DNA from: Minisyncoccota bacterium
Lineage (GTDB): Bacteria > Patescibacteriota > Minisyncoccia > Phycocordibacterales > UBA9973
Assembly (NCBI GenBank): GCA_041659785.1
Contig: JBAZXO010000001.1
Span: forward strand, 177,649-241,648
Direction of reading: 5' to 3'
Length of the DNA stretch: 64,000 nt
This document shows positions 22,702-34,211 of this stretch, in pieces. Both the position numbers and the translations under genes were made by a program. Every line of letters starts with the position of its first letter. Positions within the stretch are counted from its first letter, which is position 1. Under the pieces are notes generated by a model that worked only from the letters and a program-made list of their open reading frames with translations, did not search any database and was not told the origin of the DNA.

Positions 22702-23979
22702 TTACCAAGTAGTAATAGCTGATCTTTTCCAAGTATTCGTGGCTACACAAACATAAACGTAGCCGGAATCCCAAGCTATTGAACCAGTAATACAAGCAGA
22801 TGCAGCAGTGGCTGGAGTCTGGGCTGTTTCTAAAATAAAAGAATTTGAATTTATATCAAGCTTTGCTTGTGGTGCTTTTGTACCTATTCCAATATTCCCA
22901 GTTGAAATTGTTGCTCCTGTGCCATCGAGTGCTGTGCCGTAAATTAAATTACCTATGTCTAACTGATTTGATGCAGTTGCACTTGCTACAGCTACATCGT
23001 TACCTATTGATATATTGTTTGAACCAGTGGTGATTTGATTTTGTGATGCAGATATAGTCGAATTTCCAACAACAACATTACGAGCACCCGATGTAACTCC
23101 ATAACCAGACTGATAACCAATTAGGGTATTATAATCCGATCCAGTAAGTGCCTTATAGCCTGACTGATAGCCAAGATAGACTCCACCTTGATTAGAAAAA
23201 TGTGTTACGTTACCACTTCCAGCATTATAACCAACTGCCGTGTTAGATGTAGCTACATCACTAAAATATAAAGCATTTCCCCCAATAACGGTATTTTTTG
23301 AACCCGTAGTGTTGTAGACTAATCCCTCAAATCCTACAATAGTATTATCACTACCTGTGGTATTTGTAGCTAAAACATTGTGCCCTATTGCAGTATTATC
23401 AATACCAGTTGTATTTAACAAAAAGGAATATGAACCAATCCCAATATTAAAAGAGCCTGTGGTATTGGCACTAAGAGTATAGTCACCAATTGCAATATTG
23501 CTAGTTCCTGTGGTATTTGCGTTAAGTGCAAATGAACCCAAGGCAGTATTTTCTAATCCTGTGGTATTTGAAGATAGTGCACTATCTCCCACTGCTGTAT
23601 TATAACTTCCTTGTGATCCAGTACTTCCTGTCATTGTAAAGTTACCTGCATTTATTCCAACAAAAGTATTTTGTCCATCAGTTCCAGCTAGCGCAAAATT
23701 ATGGATAAAACGATTTGCTCCTTTGAAAATAACTCCGGTAGTTGAACTTGTGGTCGTAGGAATAGTAAGACTACTACCCAAAGTAACCATCCCTGTTCCT
23801 GTGGTTATCGCTCCGTTGTTCGTAGTCTGTAATGACAAAGCATTCCCTGCACCTACATCTATCGTAGAAGCAGCATCTCCTGTAATAGCAGCTGAGCTGA
23901 AGGTTAGAGAGGCAAATGCTTTTGTTGCACCTAAGACAATTACTAATAATACAAACAAACTTAATATTTTTTTATTCAT
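22702..23979 (-). CDS. secreted repeat protein resembling phage tail fibre shafts (NTxxG / NTTGxxN tandem motifs)
   Basis: Signal peptide MNKKILSLFVLLVIVLGATKAFA. More than 15 tandem copies of an approximately 15-aa motif (xNTAxGxxALxSNTTG). The C-terminus is Cys-containing. Confidence 0.6.
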   Translation of the reverse strand: MNKKILSLFVLLVIVLGATKAFASLTFSSAAITGDAASTIDVGAGNALSLQTTNNGAITTGTGMVTLGSSLTIPTTTSSTTGVIFKGANRFIHNFALAGTDGQNTFVGINAGNFTMTGSTGSQGSYNTAVGDSALSSNTTGLENTALGSFALNANTTGTSNIAIGDYTLSANTTGSFNIGIGSYSFLLNTTGIDNTAIGHNVLATNTTGSDNTIVGFEGLVYNTTGSKNTVIGGNALYFSDVATSNTAVGYNAGSGNVTHFSNQGGVYLGYQSGYKALTGSDYNTLIGYQSGYGVTSGARNVVVGNSTISASQNQITTGSNNISIGNDVAVASATASNQLDIGNLIYGTALDGTGATISTGNIGIGTKAPQAKLDINSNSFILETAQTPATAASACITGSIAWDSGYVYVCVATNTWKRSAITTW

Positions 23980-24017: not shown

Positions 24018-24047
24018 AGTTTACCCCCCCCCCCGAAATTTTGTTAA
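24018..24047 (-). promoter_or_regulatory. candidate promoter for the tail-fibre-like gene, with the C11/G11 tract forming most of the -35/-10 spacer
   Basis: On the minus strand: TTAACA (24042-24047), 18-nt spacer AAATTTC+G11, then TAAACT (24018-24023). The ATG is 39 nt further downstream. Confidence 0.4.
24024..24034. repeat. homopolymeric tract C11 (G11 on the coding strand of the downstream gene)
   Basis: Direct read of ttaCCCCCCCCCCCgaaa. This is very unlikely by chance in DNA that is roughly one-third GC. Confidence 0.9.
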
Positions 24048-28397: not shown

Positions 28398-30851
28398 TTA
28401 TAATGCTGGAGCTGGGGTGGATGTAGGAGTAGGTGCTGGGTCTGGGGCTGGAGAACCACCTCCCCCACTTACTGTGGGGACTCCTCCTCCGGAAGGAGGA
28501 GAGGAAGTCGTGCTTTCCCCTCCTTGTGGAGGAGGGGTGCCTCCGCCAGACGGAGGCGGGGTGGTAGTAGTTGTTGGTGCAGGTGTAGGCGTAGAAATTA
28601 ATGCTGTGGGTGGAGGTGTATTATTTTGCAAAAATGTTTGCAACTCTGTTTCAGTCACACAGGTATTGTTAATACATATTTTATCTTTTGCATGGAAACT
28701 TCCTGCAAACACATCCCCTATCCCATTTGTAACATCTGCGAGCCATGCACCCACTTTCGTATAAACATTATTAAAGAAGGCTGTCACGAAAGATTCAGTA
28801 GCGGGTGAAATGGTCTGCCCTGAACTTAGCTGAAGGGTGCCAGAAACTGCGTTTATGTTTAGATTAAGTTCTTGTAAAGCTTTAGTTAATATTGGAATAA
28901 CACCAGTAGTATTTAGAGATTTCATTCCTTCTACATCAGTCGCTACTAATTTAGGAACTACAGTTTCGACTTCTTGAGCGATAAAACCTAAATTTTTAAT
29001 AGAACCATCTACTTCATAATTCCAATTATAAACAACTGGTCTTAACTTCATTATTGTATCTAATCCATAATTAATATCTTCAATATTTTTCTTCATTCTT
29101 ACATCTGAAGTACAAGATATAGTTCCTCCAGTAGCTAAGGTACATCCTGTGGTATTTACATCGGTAAATTTTGCAATTATAGCTCCAGTTCCAGTGCCTT
29201 TTACCTCCAAAGGAATAGTCGTACCAGTTATTCCAATACCCACATTCCCCGTACTCCCTACTTGTAATCCTGTATATGCAATATTGTAAGCTTGAGAGGC
29301 GACAGTTTGAGAAGTTGAAACAGTGAGGCTTGTGGTTGAGCCAAATGCAGTAATTGTTCCTGCATTCGTACCATCCGCAAATACGAATTGCGAACCTACC
29401 ATTGCGGAAGTGAATGTCGTACCTACACCAGTGATTGTAGTCAAAGATTGAGATGCTGTGCCTGTGCTGTATTGAGTAGGGGTGACGGAGAGGATACCAG
29501 CAGGTACAAGTGTTCCAATGCCAAGATTTCCATTAATTGTTAATTTTTGTCCTGTAAGAGATCCTGCTGTGCCTGAAAAGGTTCCATAAAGGAGAGAGTA
29601 GTTTTTGTCATTCGCAAGCGTAGTCTGAAGCACATTATTTACATAAAAAGCGTTAGAATCAATTTCATTATAACCAGCTGAATATCCTAAGGCGACATTA
29701 TTGTTTCCTGTGGAGTTTGTATAAAGAGCATTAGCACCATTCGCGGTATTATAATAACCTATAGTGTTTAAATAGAGAGATTTATAACCATTTGCGGTAT
29801 TTTCCGATCCTGTGACAAAAATAGAATCATCCATGTTAATAGCCGTACCAGTATTAGAGTAAAGAGCATCTTTGCCATTCGCAGTGTTGCCATCTCCTAT
29901 AATATTTGAATAAAGAGCATTAGCACCATTCGCGGTATTACTATCGCCACTGAATCCTATAAAACAACCAGGTTCTAAAGGATTACAAGTACGAGTTATT
30001 GAAGCGTTAGAATAAAGAGAACTTAAACCAATAGCAGTGTTATTGCCACCAGAAGTATTCGAATATAAAGCTGAGTCACCAATTGCCACGTTGGAGGAAC
30101 CTGTAGTATTACTAAAAAGTGCTTCTGTTCCGCTTGCTAAATTGGCAGAACCAGTTGTATTAGAAAATAAAGCAGACTCACCTTGTGCAATATTATACAA
30201 TCCAGTCATTGTTAAATTTCCACCATCACCAAAAAAATAATTACTTAGGGAAGGATCAGCTGTAACAATATTAACACCCGCATATTTATAAGCAGAGCCT
30301 GAAGAAATATTTATATTCCCCACAACGTCAAGTTTTTGTGAAGGAGTAGTCGTCCCGATTCCAATATTTCCATTCCCTAATACTGAAAATCTTGTTCCCC
30401 CAACTAAAGTGTAAGCTACACCAGAGTTTGCAAGGGTAATAGCATCTGTGGTCATGGAAGTATCTGAAGCAATGGCAGAAATAGTTACAGTCTGACCTGT
30501 GGTTGCTGGTATTGTAATTGTGTCTCCAACTTTAAATGTATTGGTAAATTTTGTACCTACACCCGTGACTGTGGTACCGCCAGCATCATTTGAAACTGTT
30601 CCTATTCCTGTTGTTTCTTGAGCGACTTGAAATTTCGCAGTCGGTGCATTTGTACCGATACCATAAAAAAGTGTCGTTGGGTTTACATAAATTTGATCAA
30701 CCGCGCAGTTTGTATCTGTGGGACCACAAGTAGGATTCAATGTCTCTCCTGGTGCAAAGCGGGTACTAGGTGGAGAAGCAAAAACAAAAGTCGTGACCGT
30801 AAAAAAAGATGCAAATATAAATAACCCGATAAGAAAGAAATTTTTATGCAT
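28398..30851 (-). CDS. very large secreted tail-fibre-like protein with a peptidase-S74 intramolecular-chaperone domain and a Pro/Thr/Gly-rich C-terminus. Likely start is M27 (MHKNFF...) at 30851.
   Basis: Signal peptide. NTxxG/NTTGxxN repeats as in 22702-23979. SDVRMKKNIEDINYGLDTIMKLRPVVYNW...GFIAQEVETVVPKLV matches the S74 chaperone-of-endosialidase domain consensus (SDxRxKxNI ... GFIAQEV). Tail is TPPPSGGGTPPPQGG... Confidence 0.7.
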   Translation of the reverse strand: MHKNFFLIGLFIFASFFTVTTFVFASPPSTRFAPGETLNPTCGPTDTNCAVDQIYVNPTTLFYGIGTNAPTAKFQVAQETTGIGTVSNDAGGTTVTGVGTKFTNTFKVGDTITIPATTGQTVTISAIASDTSMTTDAITLANSGVAYTLVGGTRFSVLGNGNIGIGTTTPSQKLDVVGNINISSGSAYKYAGVNIVTADPSLSNYFFGDGGNLTMTGLYNIAQGESALFSNTTGSANLASGTEALFSNTTGSSNVAIGDSALYSNTSGGNNTAIGLSSLYSNASITRTCNPLEPGCFIGFSGDSNTANGANALYSNIIGDGNTANGKDALYSNTGTAINMDDSIFVTGSENTANGYKSLYLNTIGYYNTANGANALYTNSTGNNNVALGYSAGYNEIDSNAFYVNNVLQTTLANDKNYSLLYGTFSGTAGSLTGQKLTINGNLGIGTLVPAGILSVTPTQYSTGTASQSLTTITGVGTTFTSAMVGSQFVFADGTNAGTITAFGSTTSLTVSTSQTVASQAYNIAYTGLQVGSTGNVGIGITGTTIPLEVKGTGTGAIIAKFTDVNTTGCTLATGGTISCTSDVRMKKNIEDINYGLDTIMKLRPVVYNWNYEVDGSIKNLGFIAQEVETVVPKLVATDVEGMKSLNTTGVIPILTKALQELNLNINAVSGTLQLSSGQTISPATESFVTAFFNNVYTKVGAWLADVTNGIGDVFAGSFHAKDKICINNTCVTETELQTFLQNNTPPPTALISTPTPAPTTTTTPPPSGGGTPPPQGGESTTSSPPSGGGVPTVSGGGGSPAPDPAPTPTSTPAPAL

Positions 30852-30888
30852 TTTTTGAATTGTTAATTTTTTGAGATACATATATTTA

Positions 30889-32649
30889 TTATAACAAAAA
30901 ATTCTGATTAATGATCCCCCTCTTTGCATTAATTATACCAGAAGTATAAACAGTAGTATATGATTCATCTGGATTCTTGCGGTCTATGGTAATGTGATAT
31001 TCGCCTTTAGCAAGCAGACAATAATAATGACCATATTTATCAGCAACACGGTGGAATATCTCTTGCGGAAAACCTTTTCTAAACACGCGGACAATAGCAA
31101 AGGACATTGGTGTTTTGGTTTTAGCATCCATAATCGTCCCTAGAGTTTTAGGTTTTAAAAATAGCCGAATGATAAGAAGTAAAACGTAAATAGCAATAAT
31201 TATAAGATTCAACTTATTAGGATTAATAGCCAACAGAACAGTAGCAGAAATAAATCCAAGATAAAAAAGATTGGTTGAAATAATATTAATTATCCTTGCG
31301 TTTTTTGAATAAAATACCATGAGTTTCTTGTCACGTTTTGCAAACTCATTCCAGTCGAAGGCAAGGGGGTCCATTGGGATGTTTTTAGTGATGACTGTAT
31401 TTTCATTTAGAATAACTTCTCCACCGAAGTATAGATTGTCATAAAGTTCATCTCTAGTCTTTCCAGCAAGTTTTATGGAAGGTGCTTGATAGTTTGTTTT
31501 TCTTGTTGTAATTTCGTACGGACCTGGAGGTGCCAGAAAACCAAAACGTCCATCTAAGTCTGTTATGGCTGTGCCCACTTCTTTTCCTTCTTTATTTTTT
31601 AGAACTACATAGACTGGATCGAGTGGTTGCTTGGTAACACTATCATAAACCGTCCCCCAGGGTGCACGTTTTTTCCTTAAACCAAGTGATACCAGAAGAA
31701 CACTCCAAAGACGAAAAATTAAAAGGGGTACATCGGCAAAAGAAAATACATTCCCAGCAAGGGAAATTGCGACGACAGAACTTCCACCAAGAACACCGAC
31801 ACCGGAGACAGTTTTTGAAGCGATGGAACCAGCAGAAGTATTAACAAATCTAACAACATTTTTTCTTATTGTCCTAGTTGTTTTATCTACAAGAGTTACT
31901 CCTTTTTTAAAAGACTCAAAAATTGTTGTAGTAACTGAAGGTAATGATTGAGTGCCGCCACTGACTCCACCCCCAACATTTCCCGTAAATCCTGGGGTTG
32001 GTGTTGGACTCGGAATCGGAGTAGGTGTGGGATTAGGAGTCGGGGTTGGGGTTGGGGTAGGAGTTGGTGTTGGTGTAGGAGTTGGTGTCGGGGTCGGGGT
32101 TGGGGTTGGGGTTGGTGTAGGATGACCTCCCCCACCACTTTCGCTAGGACGTAAACTAAATGGTTTCCAATCAGTTTGCAAATAGAAATTATCAGTTCCG
32201 CATGAATTATCATCTAAACAATTAAAACTAATCCATCCTAAATTTTGACTCCATGCATAACCATGAAAAATTCCTAAATTATCAATAGTAACTCCTCCTC
32301 GTGTGGGCGCAAAATTAATCCAACCAGTATTTTGCCCCCAAGCATAACCAGCGAGATGACCTTCCGCATCATTAGTCACACCTCCATTCGTTGGTGCTAA
32401 ATTGATCCACCCAGCTAATTCACTCCATGCATTACCTGTAAGTCTAGAATCTGTAACATGTACATTTCCTAAAACAAGAGCAAAATTAATTTTCCCGACA
32501 TTACTATCTAAACCTTTTGCGTATTTATGAACACCATCTATCGTCCCATCAGTAGCGGAAGCATATGCAAAAAGTGGTACTGAAAACACAAAAAGACCTA
32601 AAAGTAACAAATTTTTTAGATATAAACTAAAAATTTTTTTATTTAACAT
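30889..32649 (-). CDS. secreted multi-domain protein: three GWINF/GYAW repeats, a (PT)n linker, transmembrane segments and two carboxypeptidase-regulatory-like (DxDGxF) domains
   Basis: Signal peptide. Repeats GWINLAPTNGGVT..GYAWGQNTGWINF x3. A PTPTPT... linker of about 35 aa. LKNKEGKEVGTAITDLDGRFGF motif. Confidence 0.55.
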   Translation of the reverse strand: MLNKKIFSLYLKNLLLLGLFVFSVPLFAYASATDGTIDGVHKYAKGLDSNVGKINFALVLGNVHVTDSRLTGNAWSELAGWINLAPTNGGVTNDAEGHLAGYAWGQNTGWINFAPTRGGVTIDNLGIFHGYAWSQNLGWISFNCLDDNSCGTDNFYLQTDWKPFSLRPSESGGGGHPTPTPTPTPTPTPTPTPTPTPTPTPTPTPNPTPTPIPSPTPTPGFTGNVGGGVSGGTQSLPSVTTTIFESFKKGVTLVDKTTRTIRKNVVRFVNTSAGSIASKTVSGVGVLGGSSVVAISLAGNVFSFADVPLLIFRLWSVLLVSLGLRKKRAPWGTVYDSVTKQPLDPVYVVLKNKEGKEVGTAITDLDGRFGFLAPPGPYEITTRKTNYQAPSIKLAGKTRDELYDNLYFGGEVILNENTVITKNIPMDPLAFDWNEFAKRDKKLMVFYSKNARIINIISTNLFYLGFISATVLLAINPNKLNLIIIAIYVLLLIIRLFLKPKTLGTIMDAKTKTPMSFAIVRVFRKGFPQEIFHRVADKYGHYYCLLAKGEYHITIDRKNPDESYTTVYTSGIINAKRGIINQNFLL

Positions 32650-32744: not shown

Positions 32745-34211
32745 TTACTCATCTAAAATTTCAAAATCATTACCATCTTCTGGTATAACCTTTTTCCGAC
32801 GAATAAAATAAACCGCGCCTGCCGAAGCTCCTATAAAAATAACTGAGGTAATTATGGGTAAATATGAATTACTGGGACTATTTTCTGGTGTATTACTTTG
32901 GATTGCTGAAGAAGTCAAATCCTCTGGAATAGAACTAAGATTAGTATCAATAACCCCTCCTAACCTCCCCTTATCAAGGGAGGAAAAAGATCCAGAACGT
33001 CCCCCTGATAAGGGGGATTTAGGGGGTTGCACTACTGCCAGGTCTTGCCTAACGGTATAATCAAATACAACTCCTCCTTCTCTATTTATTAATTTTAAAG
33101 TATCTTTATCGGTAATTGAAAAATTTGTAATTCTAGGAGAAATAATCATCTTCTTTTTTGATACCAAAATTGTATTCTTTGGAATCATAAAACTTTTTCC
33201 ATCACTTACTAAAAACCAATTTGAAATGTCAGCATTGTAAAGAGTATTATTCGAAAGCTCTACAAAAAAATCTTTTTCATCACCCACGCTAGATATCGAG
33301 ATGTCTGCTCCAACTATTTTTATATTAATTTCATCTATAGCATCCGGAATGTCCGAATAATTATTAGAATAATAAGAAAGAGACACAACATATTCTCCAG
33401 GGTAAAAATATGCATGAGTAAATTTACTACTATTTATCATTTGTATTTCTTTGGAATCTCCATCACCAAAATTCCAAAAATACTTTCCGTAATGCAACTG
33501 CTCTCCGCCATATCCTAATGTCGTAGCATCAAAAGGTAGTGGTAAATTAACAAAACCAAAAGTCTTGCTTATAATTTTAGTTTTAATTTTAGGTATTTCG
33601 GATACTTTCTTCTGTTCTGGTATTGTATTTGAACTTAAAGGAACAGAAGAAATTGGATTTCCGCCACCAGTTGTAGAAGTTGATGTAGTAGATGTTCCAC
33701 CATTTATTTCTCCAGGTGTGGGAGTAGACCCTACCCAAGAGCCTGATATTTTTTGTAAAGAATTTCCATCACCCGCTCCGCCTAAGGATGTTGTATAAGA
33801 AACTTCATCAATAACACTTCCATCTTGATCTAAAATTTTTAATGTTGTACCAGTATTATTTAAACTTGTAAAACCTGTGTCATACACAGAGCCAGCAAAA
33901 GAAGAGTGCTCTGCCAAGAAAGTATCTTTGTCTCCAGTAAAAATTACATAACCATTAGCCGGAATAGAGAAATTCACTTCACCGTTTATTGTTCTGTTCC
34001 CTCCTCCATCATAAAACCTCCATTTCGAAGCATCGACAGAAACTTCGTTAGATCCAGAATTGTAAATTTCTACCCATTCTCTACTTTTTCCGTTTATCGA
34101 ATCAGAACCCGATAAATCATAGTTTATTTCATTGATACTTAAACCAGCAAAAGCTAAACGACACGCTGAAAAGAAAAAAACCAACACAAAAACTGAAATT
34201 GATTTCTTCAT
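32745..34211 (-). CDS. secreted protein with lamin-tail-domain (LTD)-like modules and a C-terminal membrane anchor
   Basis: Signal peptide. INEINYD...EWVEIYNSG...VDASKWRFYDGGG matches the LTD pattern (INE...EWVEL.N.G...L.GW.L.D). A C-terminal hydrophobic helix is followed by RRKK. Confidence 0.55.
   Translation of the reverse strand: MKKSISVFVLVFFFSACRLAFAGLSINEINYDLSGSDSINGKSREWVEIYNSGSNEVSVDASKWRFYDGGGNRTINGEVNFSIPANGYVIFTGDKDTFLAEHSSFAGSVYDTGFTSLNNTGTTLKILDQDGSVIDEVSYTTSLGGAGDGNSLQKISGSWVGSTPTPGEINGGTSTTSTSTTGGGNPISSVPLSSNTIPEQKKVSEIPKIKTKIISKTFGFVNLPLPFDATTLGYGGEQLHYGKYFWNFGDGDSKEIQMINSSKFTHAYFYPGEYVVSLSYYSNNYSDIPDAIDEINIKIVGADISISSVGDEKDFFVELSNNTLYNADISNWFLVSDGKSFMIPKNTILVSKKKMIISPRITNFSITDKDTLKLINREGGVVFDYTVRQDLAVVQPPKSPLSGGRSGSFSSLDKGRLGGVIDTNLSSIPEDLTSSAIQSNTPENSPSNSYLPIITSVIFIGASAGAVYFIRRKKVIPEDGNDFEILDE

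What the first reader, a model, noticed from the sequence alone, without database searches (positions are those of the whole stretch)
28398..30851. Giant secreted protein combining tail-fibre shaft repeats with a peptidase-S74 intramolecular-chaperone domain and a Pro/Thr-rich tail
After a signal peptide the protein carries many NTxxG / NTTGxxN repeats, shared with the 425-aa protein at 22702-23979. It then has a clear S74 'chaperone of endosialidase' module (SDVRMKKNIEDINYGLDTIMKLRPVVYNW...GFIAQEVETVVPKLV). In phages this module self-cleaves after folding trimeric tail fibres or spikes. Here about 200 further residues follow it, including a TPPPSGGGTPPPQGG low-complexity tail, which is unusual. 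Together with the phase-variable paralogue, the PT-linker protein and the LTD protein, this region (22.7-34.2 kb) looks like a battery of host- or cell-attachment fibres.
Basis: partly seen in the sequence, partly recalled or inferred. Interest (0 to 1): 0.55.

Follow-up and report, generated by a model that had tools for sequence, protein, structure and literature searches.

The report
Cell-surface fibre with self-cleaving chaperone
This is a secreted, phage-tail-fibre-like surface protein of an uncultivated Paceibacteria (candidate phyla radiation) bacterium; its self-cleaving folding domain is ordinary, but it is followed by a conserved, undescribed tail module that I found named only in that bacterial group.

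Summary
ORF 28398-30851 (-) encodes an 817-aa protein with a signal-peptide-like N-terminus. It has about ten 17-residue NTAxGxxALxSNTTGxx repeats, shared with the 425-aa ORF at 22702-23979. It has a significant Peptidase_S74 intramolecular-chaperone domain (E 2.5e-15) with the Ser582/Lys587 motif, and a 72-aa Pro/Thr/Gly/Ser tail.

Corrections:
- It is not giant.
- It is not in a prophage; enolase, LepA and transketolase genes flank it.
- NCBI already names the identical protein "tail fiber domain-containing protein" from a Candidatus Paceibacterota MAG.
- The chaperone fold runs to about aa 673, so the true extension is about 144 aa.

That extension is not junk. Residues 683-745 form a conserved module (WLAD..NGI..FA..F.AK.K-C-x4-C-xT..L..LL). 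It has no Pfam, NCBIfam or PDB match and was not found in 50,697 phage records. It occurs in at least 1,714 protein clusters, and every named one is from Patescibacteria.

Fibres of this build also share an N-terminal Cys-loop motif. They often sit beside a conserved ~600-aa membrane protein, the 586-aa neighbour here.

The closest characterised analogue is the S74 class of Bdellovibrio MAT fibres. Self-cleavage, trimer formation and an attachment role are inferred, not shown.

The parts
28398..30851 (-). Fibre gene, 817 aa from the ATG at 30851. Alternative in-frame ATGs at 30881 (NCBI, 827 aa) and 30929.
30777..30851 (-). Signal-peptide-like N-terminus, aa 1-25, with a probable cut after VFA(25).
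   Evidence: It is the only 19-aa hydrophobic window above 1.6 in the protein. The cut site was read by eye; no predictor was run.
30699..30755 (-). N-terminal Cys-loop motif APGETLNPTCGPTDTNCAV (aa 33-51; C42, C49).
   Evidence: The motif directly follows the signal peptide in 11 of 266 collected homologues. It is also present in all six S74 fibres found beside a homologue of the 586-aa neighbour.
30357..30629 (-). Small beta-rich domain, aa 75-165. A related segment recurs at about aa 472-526.
   Evidence: AlphaFold2 pLDDT 77-91. 56-83% identical copies occur inside other fibres. Foldseek shows only weak similarity to beta-barrel domains of phage endosialidases, E 9e-3 or worse.
29649..30194 (-). 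About ten 17-residue repeats NTAxGxxALxSNTTGxx (aa 220-401). Two units carry insertions, one of them holding C289/C296.
   Evidence: PHROG tail spike and virion structural protein families match this region. No Pfam match even at E 10.
29109..29246 (-). Distal end of the mature fibre (aa 536-581): an NVGIGITGTTIPLEV loop and the C570...C580 loop, ending in Thr581.
   Evidence: Similar GIGTxxPxxKL loops occur at aa 62-75, 162-176 and 442-456.
29091..29108 (-). Predicted catalytic pair Ser582...Lys587 (SDVRMK). The predicted scissile bond is Thr581-Ser582.
   Evidence: Ser and Lys are invariant in the 27-sequence alignment A2. The geometry matches T5 pb1 (Thr1263-Ser1264, Lys1269; PMC4690869) and the SDxxxK motif of MAT fibres (PMC10769870).
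28833..29108 (-). Intramolecular chaperone domain (CIMCD, Peptidase_S74), aa 582-673. The Pfam match covers aa 582-636.
28617..28805 (-). Post-chaperone module, aa 683-745: two helices, a beta-hairpin with C726 and C731, then a helix.
   Evidence: AlphaFold2 pLDDT 55-82. A profile finds 1,714 clusters at E 1e-3 or better. No Pfam, NCBIfam or PDB match.
28401..28616 (-). Pro/Thr/Gly/Ser-rich tail, aa 746-817, predicted disordered.
   Evidence: In 150 module proteins the tail has a median length of 85 aa, is T/P/S/A/E-rich, has no conserved end motif, and holds a TM-like segment in only 2 of 150.
30889..32649 (-). Upstream neighbour, 586 aa: signal peptide, GYAW..GWINF repeats, PT linker, hydrophobic segments, CarboxypepD_reg domain. 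It is a candidate partner of the fibre.
32745..34211 (-). LTD/PKD surface protein with a C-terminal hydrophobic anchor, the first gene of the recurring trio.
22702..23979 (-). 425-aa paralogue with the same 17-residue repeats but no S74 domain; it has a different C-terminal end.

Best explanation
The gene encodes a Sec-exported, phage-tail-fibre-like cell-surface fibre of a Paceibacteria (Patescibacteria/CPR) bacterium.

Proposed mechanism:
1. The chain is exported unfolded through its N-terminal signal peptide.
2. Three chains are brought into register by the C-terminal intramolecular chaperone domain (aa 582-673).
3. That domain templates folding of the shaft.
4. Once the adjacent fibre end is correctly formed, Ser582, activated by Lys587, cuts the Thr581-Ser582 bond.
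5. This releases a 236-aa C-terminal fragment made of the chaperone, a lineage-specific Cys-hairpin module and the Pro/Thr tail.
6. A mature fibre of about 556 aa is left, with its distal end (the C570-C580 loop region) exposed.
7. The fibre is probably held on the cell through its N-terminal Cys-loop motif. The adjacent 586-aa membrane protein is a candidate partner.
8. The fibre probably serves attachment to another cell or surface.

Shown: domain identities, motif conservation, the chaperone fold, the cellular (non-phage) context, the distribution of the module, and the gene neighbourhood. Inferred: trimer formation, cleavage, which end is anchored, and the attachment function.
For: Chaperone domain:
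- PF13884, E 2.5e-15, above the curated cut-off.
- A profile of the C-terminal region hits solved chaperone-bearing proteins: S16 gp37 (2e-20), 8jov tail fibre (9e-17), MyRF ICA domain (4e-15), T5 L-shaped fibre (5e-9) and 3gud neck appendage (5e-4).
- The AlphaFold2 model has pLDDT 85-97 over aa 579-673.
- Foldseek matches MyRF ICA (prob 1.0, TM 0.64), the K1F endosialidase chaperone 3gw6 (prob 0.96) and 329 viral models at E 1e-3 or better.
- Ser582 and Lys587 are invariant in 27 homologues. The Thr-Ser...Lys(+5) arrangement is as in T5 pb1.

Shaft: PHROG tail-fibre and tailspike families match the shaft and the C-terminus.

Cellular context:
- Flanking genes are PPDK, enolase, a MOFRL-family protein, a 2-hydroxyacid dehydrogenase, a DivIC-family protein, LepA, an ABC transporter, a PfkB kinase and transketolase.
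- GC content is uniform.
- The homologue P0013 lies next to GatC, an amidase and SecDF.
- The identical protein comes from a 318-kb Paceibacterota contig.

Precedent: in Bdellovibrio, 13 of 21 MAT surface fibres have a signal peptide and end in an S74 domain with SDxxxK. Bd3182 self-cleaves at S782, and this is blocked by S782A.

Family architecture: a signal peptide plus the N-terminal PGETL(N/D)PxCxPxDxNC motif, the chaperone, the Cys-hairpin module and an acidic or PT-rich tail recur in fibres beside homologues of the 586-aa protein in L007, L011, L018, L020 (two fibres) and L022.
Against: - No experiment or multimer model supports trimerisation or cleavage.
- The monomer AlphaFold2 model of the shaft is uninformative (mean pLDDT 51, and 25-33 over aa 270-470).
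- The phage mechanism also needs an Arg from a neighbouring chain. Its equivalent was not identified here. At the position where six close homologues have ARF, this protein has AKF (K561).
- The chaperone is not at the C-terminus as it is in phage fibres.
- Nothing shows where the mature fibre stays after cleavage.
- The neighbour association is partial: 3 of 6 sampled homologues of the 586-aa protein sit beside Ig/fn3 giant proteins instead.
- No binding target is known.
Confidence: 0.6

Rival explanations
1. It is a virion tail fibre of a prophage, tailocin or contractile injection system integrated in the genome.
For: PHROG tail fibre, tailspike and baseplate families match. 285 phage records share the chaperone domain.
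Against: There are no phage-type genes within about 12 kb on either side; housekeeping genes flank the locus. GC content is uniform. A Sec-type signal peptide is not expected for fibres that assemble in the cytoplasm (established knowledge). The neighbours are surface and membrane proteins that recur in other Patescibacteria. The C-terminal module was not found in phage records or viral contigs.
Confidence: 0.04
2. The S74 domain folds and trimerises the fibre but no longer cleaves. The chaperone, the Cys-hairpin module and the Pro/Thr tail would then stay attached and form the distal or wall-embedded end of the mature protein.
For: K561 replaces the Arg seen in six close homologues. The material after the chaperone is conserved, which fits a lasting function. 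In about 22 of the top 150 module proteins the module follows domains other than S74.
Against: Ser582 and Lys587 are strictly conserved across the module-bearing subfamily. That is hard to explain without catalysis. Bacteroidota homologues also place a removable sorting domain after S74.
Confidence: 0.2
3. It is a released, soluble tailspike-like protein, for example a polysaccharide-binding or polysaccharide-degrading fibre that acts on host or biofilm glycans, rather than a cell-anchored adhesin.
For: PHROG tail spike family 4636 matches. There is no membrane anchor, LPXTG motif or other known wall-binding domain. After signal-peptide removal and S74 cleavage, no known anchor remains.
Against: No catalytic domain was detected. 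The N-terminal motif is conserved and the fibre is tightly adjacent to a membrane protein that carries an extracellular domain on a PT stalk.
Confidence: 0.12

Closest known systems
Bdellovibrio bacteriovorus MAT (mosaic adhesive trimeric) fibres, S74 class, e.g. Bd3182 (PMC10769870)
   Same: Chromosomally encoded. Signal peptide, long repetitive fibre, C-terminal S74 chaperone with SDxxxK. Recurrent G-x-G-x-x-x-P-x-x-x-L type loops. An S74-less paralogue in the same genome (the 425-aa ORF), as with the MAT NS74 class.
   Different: The host lineage differs (Patescibacteria). The N-terminal motif is a short Cys loop rather than the ~130-aa beta-rich domain described for MATs; these were not compared directly. 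The chaperone is followed by a further conserved module and a low-complexity tail. No localisation or cleavage data exist.
Phage fibres and spikes matured by a C-terminal intramolecular chaperone (K1F endosialidase 3gw6, T5 pb1 4uw8/8hqz, phi29/GA-1 gp12 3gud, S16 gp37 6f45)
   Same: Chaperone domain sequence and fold. Thr/Ser-Ser...Lys(+5) catalytic arrangement. Fibre-like repeats upstream.
   Different: Not in a phage. Has a signal peptide. The chaperone is not C-terminal: 144 more residues follow it, and nothing equivalent was found in 50,697 phage records.
MyRF ICA domain (7dc3), a eukaryotic membrane-bound transcription factor
   Same: It is the best structural match of the model (prob 1.0, TM 0.64). 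In MyRF, too, the S74-type domain is internal and more sequence follows it.
   Different: MyRF uses cleavage to free an N-terminal DNA-binding part from a C-terminal membrane anchor. Here no membrane segment follows the domain.
Bacteroidota 'tail fiber domain-containing' proteins with S74 followed by a T9SS C-terminal sorting domain (e.g. P0026, P0049, P0074)
   Same: Same shaft repeats and chaperone. Something lineage-specific is also placed after the chaperone.
   Different: There the added domain is the known PF18962 sorting signal at the very C-terminus. Here it is an unannotated module followed by a variable tail.

Membership tests
Peptidase_S74 / C-terminal intramolecular chaperone domain (PF13884) | Significant match to the family model | tested here: met
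   56.9 bits against a cut-off of 22, E 2.5e-15, aa 582-636. PDB profile hits to five solved chaperone-bearing proteins.
Peptidase_S74 / C-terminal intramolecular chaperone domain (PF13884) | Catalytic Ser with Lys five residues later (SDxxxK) | tested here: met
   S582-D-V-R-M-K587. Both are invariant in alignment A2. The motif is as described.
Peptidase_S74 / C-terminal intramolecular chaperone domain (PF13884) | Chaperone fold: a mixed alpha/beta part plus a long C-terminal helix | tested here: met
   AlphaFold2 pLDDT 85-97. Foldseek matches 7dc3, 3gw6 and 3gud, and 329 viral models.
Peptidase_S74 / C-terminal intramolecular chaperone domain (PF13884) | Arg from a neighbouring chain and an Asp that complete the active site (T5: Arg1250, Asp1239) | tested here: inconclusive
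   The equivalent residues were not identified. K561 stands where six close homologues have Arg. A trimer model would be needed.
Peptidase_S74 / C-terminal intramolecular chaperone domain (PF13884) | Self-cleavage after trimer folding | not testable with these tools
   Needs expression of wild type against S582A, or proteomics.
Peptidase_S74 / C-terminal intramolecular chaperone domain (PF13884) | The domain ends the polypeptide | tested here: not met
   144 residues follow the fold. The same holds for 21 of 91 cellular homologues.
Phage virion tail fibre | Encoded among phage structural genes | tested here: not met
   The neighbours are housekeeping and surface-protein genes. The context of homologue P0013 is also cellular.
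Phage virion tail fibre | Cytoplasmic assembly (no export signal) | tested here: not met
   The N-terminus is hydrophobic and signal-peptide-like. This was judged by eye only.
Bdellovibrio MAT fibres (S74 class) | Signal peptide plus a terminal S74 domain with SDxxxK on a long fibre | tested here: met
Bdellovibrio MAT fibres (S74 class) | Conserved ~130-aa beta-rich domain right after the signal peptide | not tested
   No MAT sequence was available for comparison. This protein has a 19-aa Cys-loop motif followed by a beta-rich domain at aa 75-165.
Trimeric autotransporter adhesins (YadA type) | C-terminal beta-barrel membrane anchor and YadA head or stalk repeats | tested here: not met
   No YadA_anchor or YadA_head match, even at E 10 on the repeat region. 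Some distant homologues do carry YadA_head.

The most novel reading that the evidence does not exclude
Patescibacteria may have their own fibre-assembly system built around the S74 chaperone. In this reading:
- The N-terminal Cys-loop motif docks the fibre onto the extracellular GWINF-repeat domain of the adjacent ~600-aa membrane protein, which stands on a Pro/Thr stalk.
- The lineage-specific Cys-hairpin module and its tail act as a temporary tether or registration device. They keep the last-exported C-termini of three chains together outside the cell until the chaperone has trimerised them.
- The module and tail are then discarded together with the chaperone by self-cleavage.

That would be an extracytoplasmic adaptation of a folding mechanism so far known from phage fibres assembled in the cytoplasm.
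Probability: 0.15. Interest if true: 0.7.

Novelty: new variant of a known kind. Interest (0 to 1): 0.42.

Why it matters
Most Patescibacteria are thought to live attached to other cells, and how they recognise and hold on to a partner is largely unknown (my own knowledge). I found no paper that links S74 fibres to this group.

This locus gives a concrete, widespread candidate. It is a fibre family built and probably matured like phage receptor-binding proteins, as in the predator Bdellovibrio. It carries two lineage-specific additions (an N-terminal Cys loop and a C-terminal module) and has a recurrent membrane-protein neighbour.

The C-terminal module alone defines at least 1,714 protein clusters with no annotation. 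A family model for it would improve annotation of these genomes.

The fibre itself is not surprising. NCBI already labels it as a tail-fibre-domain protein, and thousands of cellular homologues exist.

Tried and rejected
- A word-indexed homologue search with the 79-aa module found nothing. This was a limit of the index: the exhaustive profile search then found 1,714 clusters.
- The exact protein is not in the contig index, so its own context was read from the window.
- The full-length monomer AlphaFold2 model was poor (mean pLDDT 51). It cannot confirm or refute a trimeric beta-helix.
A narrower alignment worked, but it only reaches close relatives, so "all Patescibacteria" is a biased sample.
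- The single viral-contig hit (L017) is a chance match in a spurious antisense ORF of a large phage gene.
- From memory, I thought the 'GRVPVKV...GD' domain upstream of the module in S74-less proteins might be the Peptidase_G2 autoprocessing domain. Neither Pfam nor PHROGs matched it, so I dropped the idea.
- PADLOC defence models gave no hit for the fibre or its neighbours.
- The YadA/TAA reading was rejected because there is no anchor and no head repeats.
- The downstream ABC exporter is adjacent in the close relative L002 but lies 4.8 kb away in L012. I treat this as shared ancestry, not as a functional link.
Full report
**What is there**

The finding sits on one minus-strand ORF. Two earlier in-frame ATGs exist, at 30881 and 30929. 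The identical protein, called from the 30881 start (827 aa), is in NCBI as [quoted passage not shown], on a 318-kb contig.

The window is a cellular genome. It carries six tRNA genes and has uniform GC of about 0.33-0.41. Around the locus lie genes for PPDK, enolase, a MOFRL-family protein, a 2-hydroxyacid dehydrogenase, a DivIC-family protein, LepA, an ABC transporter, a PfkB kinase and a split transketolase. Nothing phage-like lies nearby.

**Check of the observation**

1. *Signal-peptide-like N-terminus.* The N-terminus reads MHKNFFLIGLFIFASFFTVTTFVFA|SPPS. It is the only strongly hydrophobic stretch in the protein. I could not run a signal-peptide predictor, so the cleavage site is read by eye.
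2. *Repeats.* Residues 220-401 hold about ten 17-residue units with the consensus NTAxGxxALxSNTTGxx. Two units are interrupted by insertions. The core motif occurs 12 times, against a mean of 1.4 in shuffles.
3. *Shared with the paralogue.* The repeats align to the 425-aa ORF at 22702-23979 with 40% identity over 214 aa, E 4e-20.
4. *S74 domain.* Pfam Peptidase_S74 matches aa 582-636 at E 2.5e-15, well above the curated cut-off.

The last 72 residues are 31% Pro, 21% Thr, 17% Gly and 12.5% Ser. "Giant" is an overstatement for 817 aa.

**The chaperone domain**

A profile of the C-terminal region (alignment A2, 27 sequences) was searched against PDB sequences. It finds:

- S16 gp37 (6f45), 2e-20
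- a tail fibre (8jov), 9e-17
- the MyRF ICA domain (7dc3), 4e-15
- the T5 L-shaped fibre (8hqz), 5e-9
- the neck-appendage chaperone 3gud, 5e-4

An AlphaFold2 model of aa 540-817 is confident (pLDDT 85-97) from about aa 579 to 673. This stretch is a small alpha/beta unit plus a long helix. Foldseek matches it to MyRF ICA (prob 1.0, TM 0.64), to the K1F endosialidase chaperone 3gw6 (prob 0.96) and to 3gud. It also matches 329 viral models at E 1e-3 or better, mostly named "intramolecular chaperone auto-processing domain".

Ser582 and Lys587 (SDVRMK) are invariant in A2, and the residue before the Ser is Thr. This matches T5 pb1, where the Thr1263-Ser1264 bond is cut and Lys1269 activates the Ser (PMC4690869). 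It also matches the SDxxxK motif of the Bdellovibrio fibres (PMC10769870).

One caveat remains. The phage mechanism also needs an Arg from a neighbouring chain, and I could not place its equivalent. Where six close homologues read ARF, this protein reads AKF.

**How unusual is the sequence after the chaperone?**

The Pfam model covers only the first 55 residues of a chaperone that here runs about 92 residues. The real extension is therefore 144 aa: a 9-aa linker, a 63-aa module and a 72-aa tail.

Among 91 chaperone-bearing proteins in the top 120 homologues, 70 end 97-171 aa after the Ser and 21 end 200-326 aa after it. Several of the long ones are Bacteroidota-type proteins with a T9SS sorting domain after S74 (PF18962 in P0026, P0049 and P0074). 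Another group shares this protein's module. An extension is thus common in cellular relatives.

In phages nothing comparable was found. 285 phage records match the chaperone, but none covers 80% or more of chaperone plus module, and no listed match extends past query residue 123 of 165.

**The module**

AlphaFold2 predicts helix 683-705, helix 711-718, a beta-hairpin at 724-733 that carries Cys726 and Cys731, and helix 734-743. Confidence is moderate (pLDDT 55-82). The tail is predicted disordered.

A profile of eight module sequences (A1) was run against 1.84 billion representative proteins. It found 1,714 proteins at E 1e-3 or better and 249 at 1e-10 or better. The module always lies near the C-terminus, in proteins of 113 to 4,372 aa.

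In the best 150:

- The consensus is WLADAxNGIGxxFAxxFxAKxKICVDxxCLTKxDLxxLL.
- The two Cys are present in 100% and 97% of sequences.
- The following tail has a median of 85 aa, is rich in T, P, S, A and E, and has no conserved end motif.
- A membrane-like segment occurs in only 2 of 150 tails.

A chaperone domain lies directly upstream in 113 of the 150, with a median gap of 18 aa. Fifteen are N-terminal fragments. About 22 carry other, unannotated domains instead.

No Pfam, NCBIfam or PDB sequence matches the module. Every named member I looked up is from Patescibacteria: Paceibacterota, Vogelbacteria, Minisyncoccia, Nomurabacteria, one Saccharibacteria-labelled MAG, and "Patescibacteria group". 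The genome scan only reaches close relatives, so the restriction to this lineage is a strong impression, not a proof. The one viral-contig hit is spurious.

**The rest of the protein**

The eight Cys form four close pairs: 42/49, 289/296, 570/580 and 726/731. This suggests small disulfide loops, though that is inference.

The first pair lies in a motif, (Y/F)xPGETL(N/D)PxCxPxDxNCxV, placed directly after the signal peptide. The motif recurs in 11 of 266 collected homologues.

Residues 75-165 form a confident small beta domain (pLDDT 77-91). It is 56-83% identical to segments inside otherwise different fibres, which fits a mosaic, shuffled architecture. Its similarity to beta-barrel domains of phage endosialidases is weak (E 9e-3 or worse).

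The repeat shaft was not modelled (pLDDT 25-33 in the monomer model).

Loops of the type GIGTxxPxxKL occur four times. They resemble the capping-loop consensus reported for MAT fibres and MyRF. I did not test this formally.

**Neighbourhood**

The upstream 586-aa gene (30889-32649) ends 7 to 37 nt before the fibre's start. It encodes a signal peptide, GYAW..GWINF repeats, a PT linker, two hydrophobic regions and a CarboxypepD_reg domain. It has more than 1,100 homologues, and the named ones are all from Patescibacteria.

- Three lie directly beside an S74 protein on the same strand: L018, L020 (flanked by two) and L022.
- Three lie beside a 1,077-4,020-aa Ig/fn3/Calx-beta protein, in what looks like one orthologous context.

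Further observations:

- L007 repeats the window's order: LTD protein, 586-like protein, S74 fibre.
- L011 has a short GWINF protein between two S74 fibres.
- All six fibres next to such a neighbour carry the N-terminal Cys-loop motif, the chaperone and a Cys-hairpin module variant.
- The one close relative that lacks the neighbour (L002) also lacks the motif.

The sample is small.

**Mechanism and comparison**

The best-supported reading is a cell-surface counterpart of a phage receptor-binding fibre. It would be exported by Sec, trimerised and folded from its C-terminal chaperone, then self-cleaved at Thr581-Ser582. The chaperone, module and tail (236 aa) would leave, and the fibre end would be exposed.

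The closest characterised system is the S74 class of Bdellovibrio MAT fibres. These have a signal peptide and a terminal S74 domain with SDxxxK. Self-cleavage is proven for Bd3182, and they are implicated in prey recognition and handling. The 425-aa paralogue without S74 parallels the MAT "NS74" class.

The differences from MAT fibres are the lineage, the N-terminal motif, the post-chaperone module with its tail, and the membrane-protein neighbour.

The main rival is that cleavage no longer occurs and the C-terminal parts are permanent. The invariant Ser and Lys argue against this, but the K561 substitution and the conservation of the module keep it alive. A prophage origin is effectively excluded.

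**Verdict**

The fibre is a new member of a known and already annotated kind. The conserved, apparently lineage-restricted module after the chaperone, and the recurring partner gene, make it a new variant worth a family definition and a simple cleavage experiment.

Interest is moderate (0.42). It offers a testable lead on how Patescibacteria attach to other cells, but no function has been shown.

Noticed in passing
window 30889-32649 (-); loci L007, L011, L018-L023: The 586-aa neighbour has GWINF repeats, a PT stalk, membrane segments and a CarboxypepD_reg domain. It belongs to a family with more than 1,100 homologues. In every informative context sampled, the family member lies directly beside a very large secreted protein on the same strand: S74 fibres in L007, L018, L020 and L022, and Ig/fn3/Calx-beta giants in L019, L021 and L023.
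   Followed up: partly
window 24024-24034 (minus strand poly-G): A run of 11 G lies 45-55 nt upstream of the ATG (23979) of the 425-aa S74-less paralogue. This could be a slipped-strand expression switch. I did not compare it across strains.
   Followed up: no
L002 1336-6366 (protein P0121): In the closest relative the 586-aa gene is missing. The 1,673-aa fibre there starts with a signal peptide resembling that of the 586-aa protein, followed by a Pro-rich and collagen-like GPxGPx stretch instead of the Cys-loop motif. This suggests a deletion or fusion, or domain swapping.
   Followed up: partly
proteins P0154, P0160, P0162, P0199, P0203, P0253 and P0158, P0159, P0254: In these proteins the C-terminal module follows two other conserved, unannotated domains instead of S74: 'RPVALSGRVPVKVNLEGG.I..GD.I..SS.PGVG.KA' and 'TEGTNHLDIFDGTAP..GELRVMDAAGN'. 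Neither has a Pfam or PHROG match.
   Followed up: partly
tails of P0005, P0121, P0126, P0128, P0158: A second small Cys motif, 'PTCT.PQ.LV.NVCTDP', recurs inside the low-complexity tails of some module proteins. It is not present in the window protein.
   Followed up: no
L007 4002-5438 and 5413-6360: The fibre orthologue is split into two overlapping ORFs. This could be a frameshift, an assembly error or a real split. The MAG is labelled Saccharibacteria although its neighbours resemble Paceibacteria genes.
   Followed up: no
window 31994-32121: A tandem DNA repeat (periods 6, 18, 24 and 48) encodes the PTPTPT linker of the 586-aa protein. It is a likely site of length variation.
   Followed up: no
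window 32745-34211 (-): The LTD/PKD protein ends in a hydrophobic segment followed by RRKK, a C-terminal membrane anchor, with no recognisable LPXTG motif. Its homologues precede the fibre locus in L002 (63% identity) and L007 (36%).
   Followed up: partly
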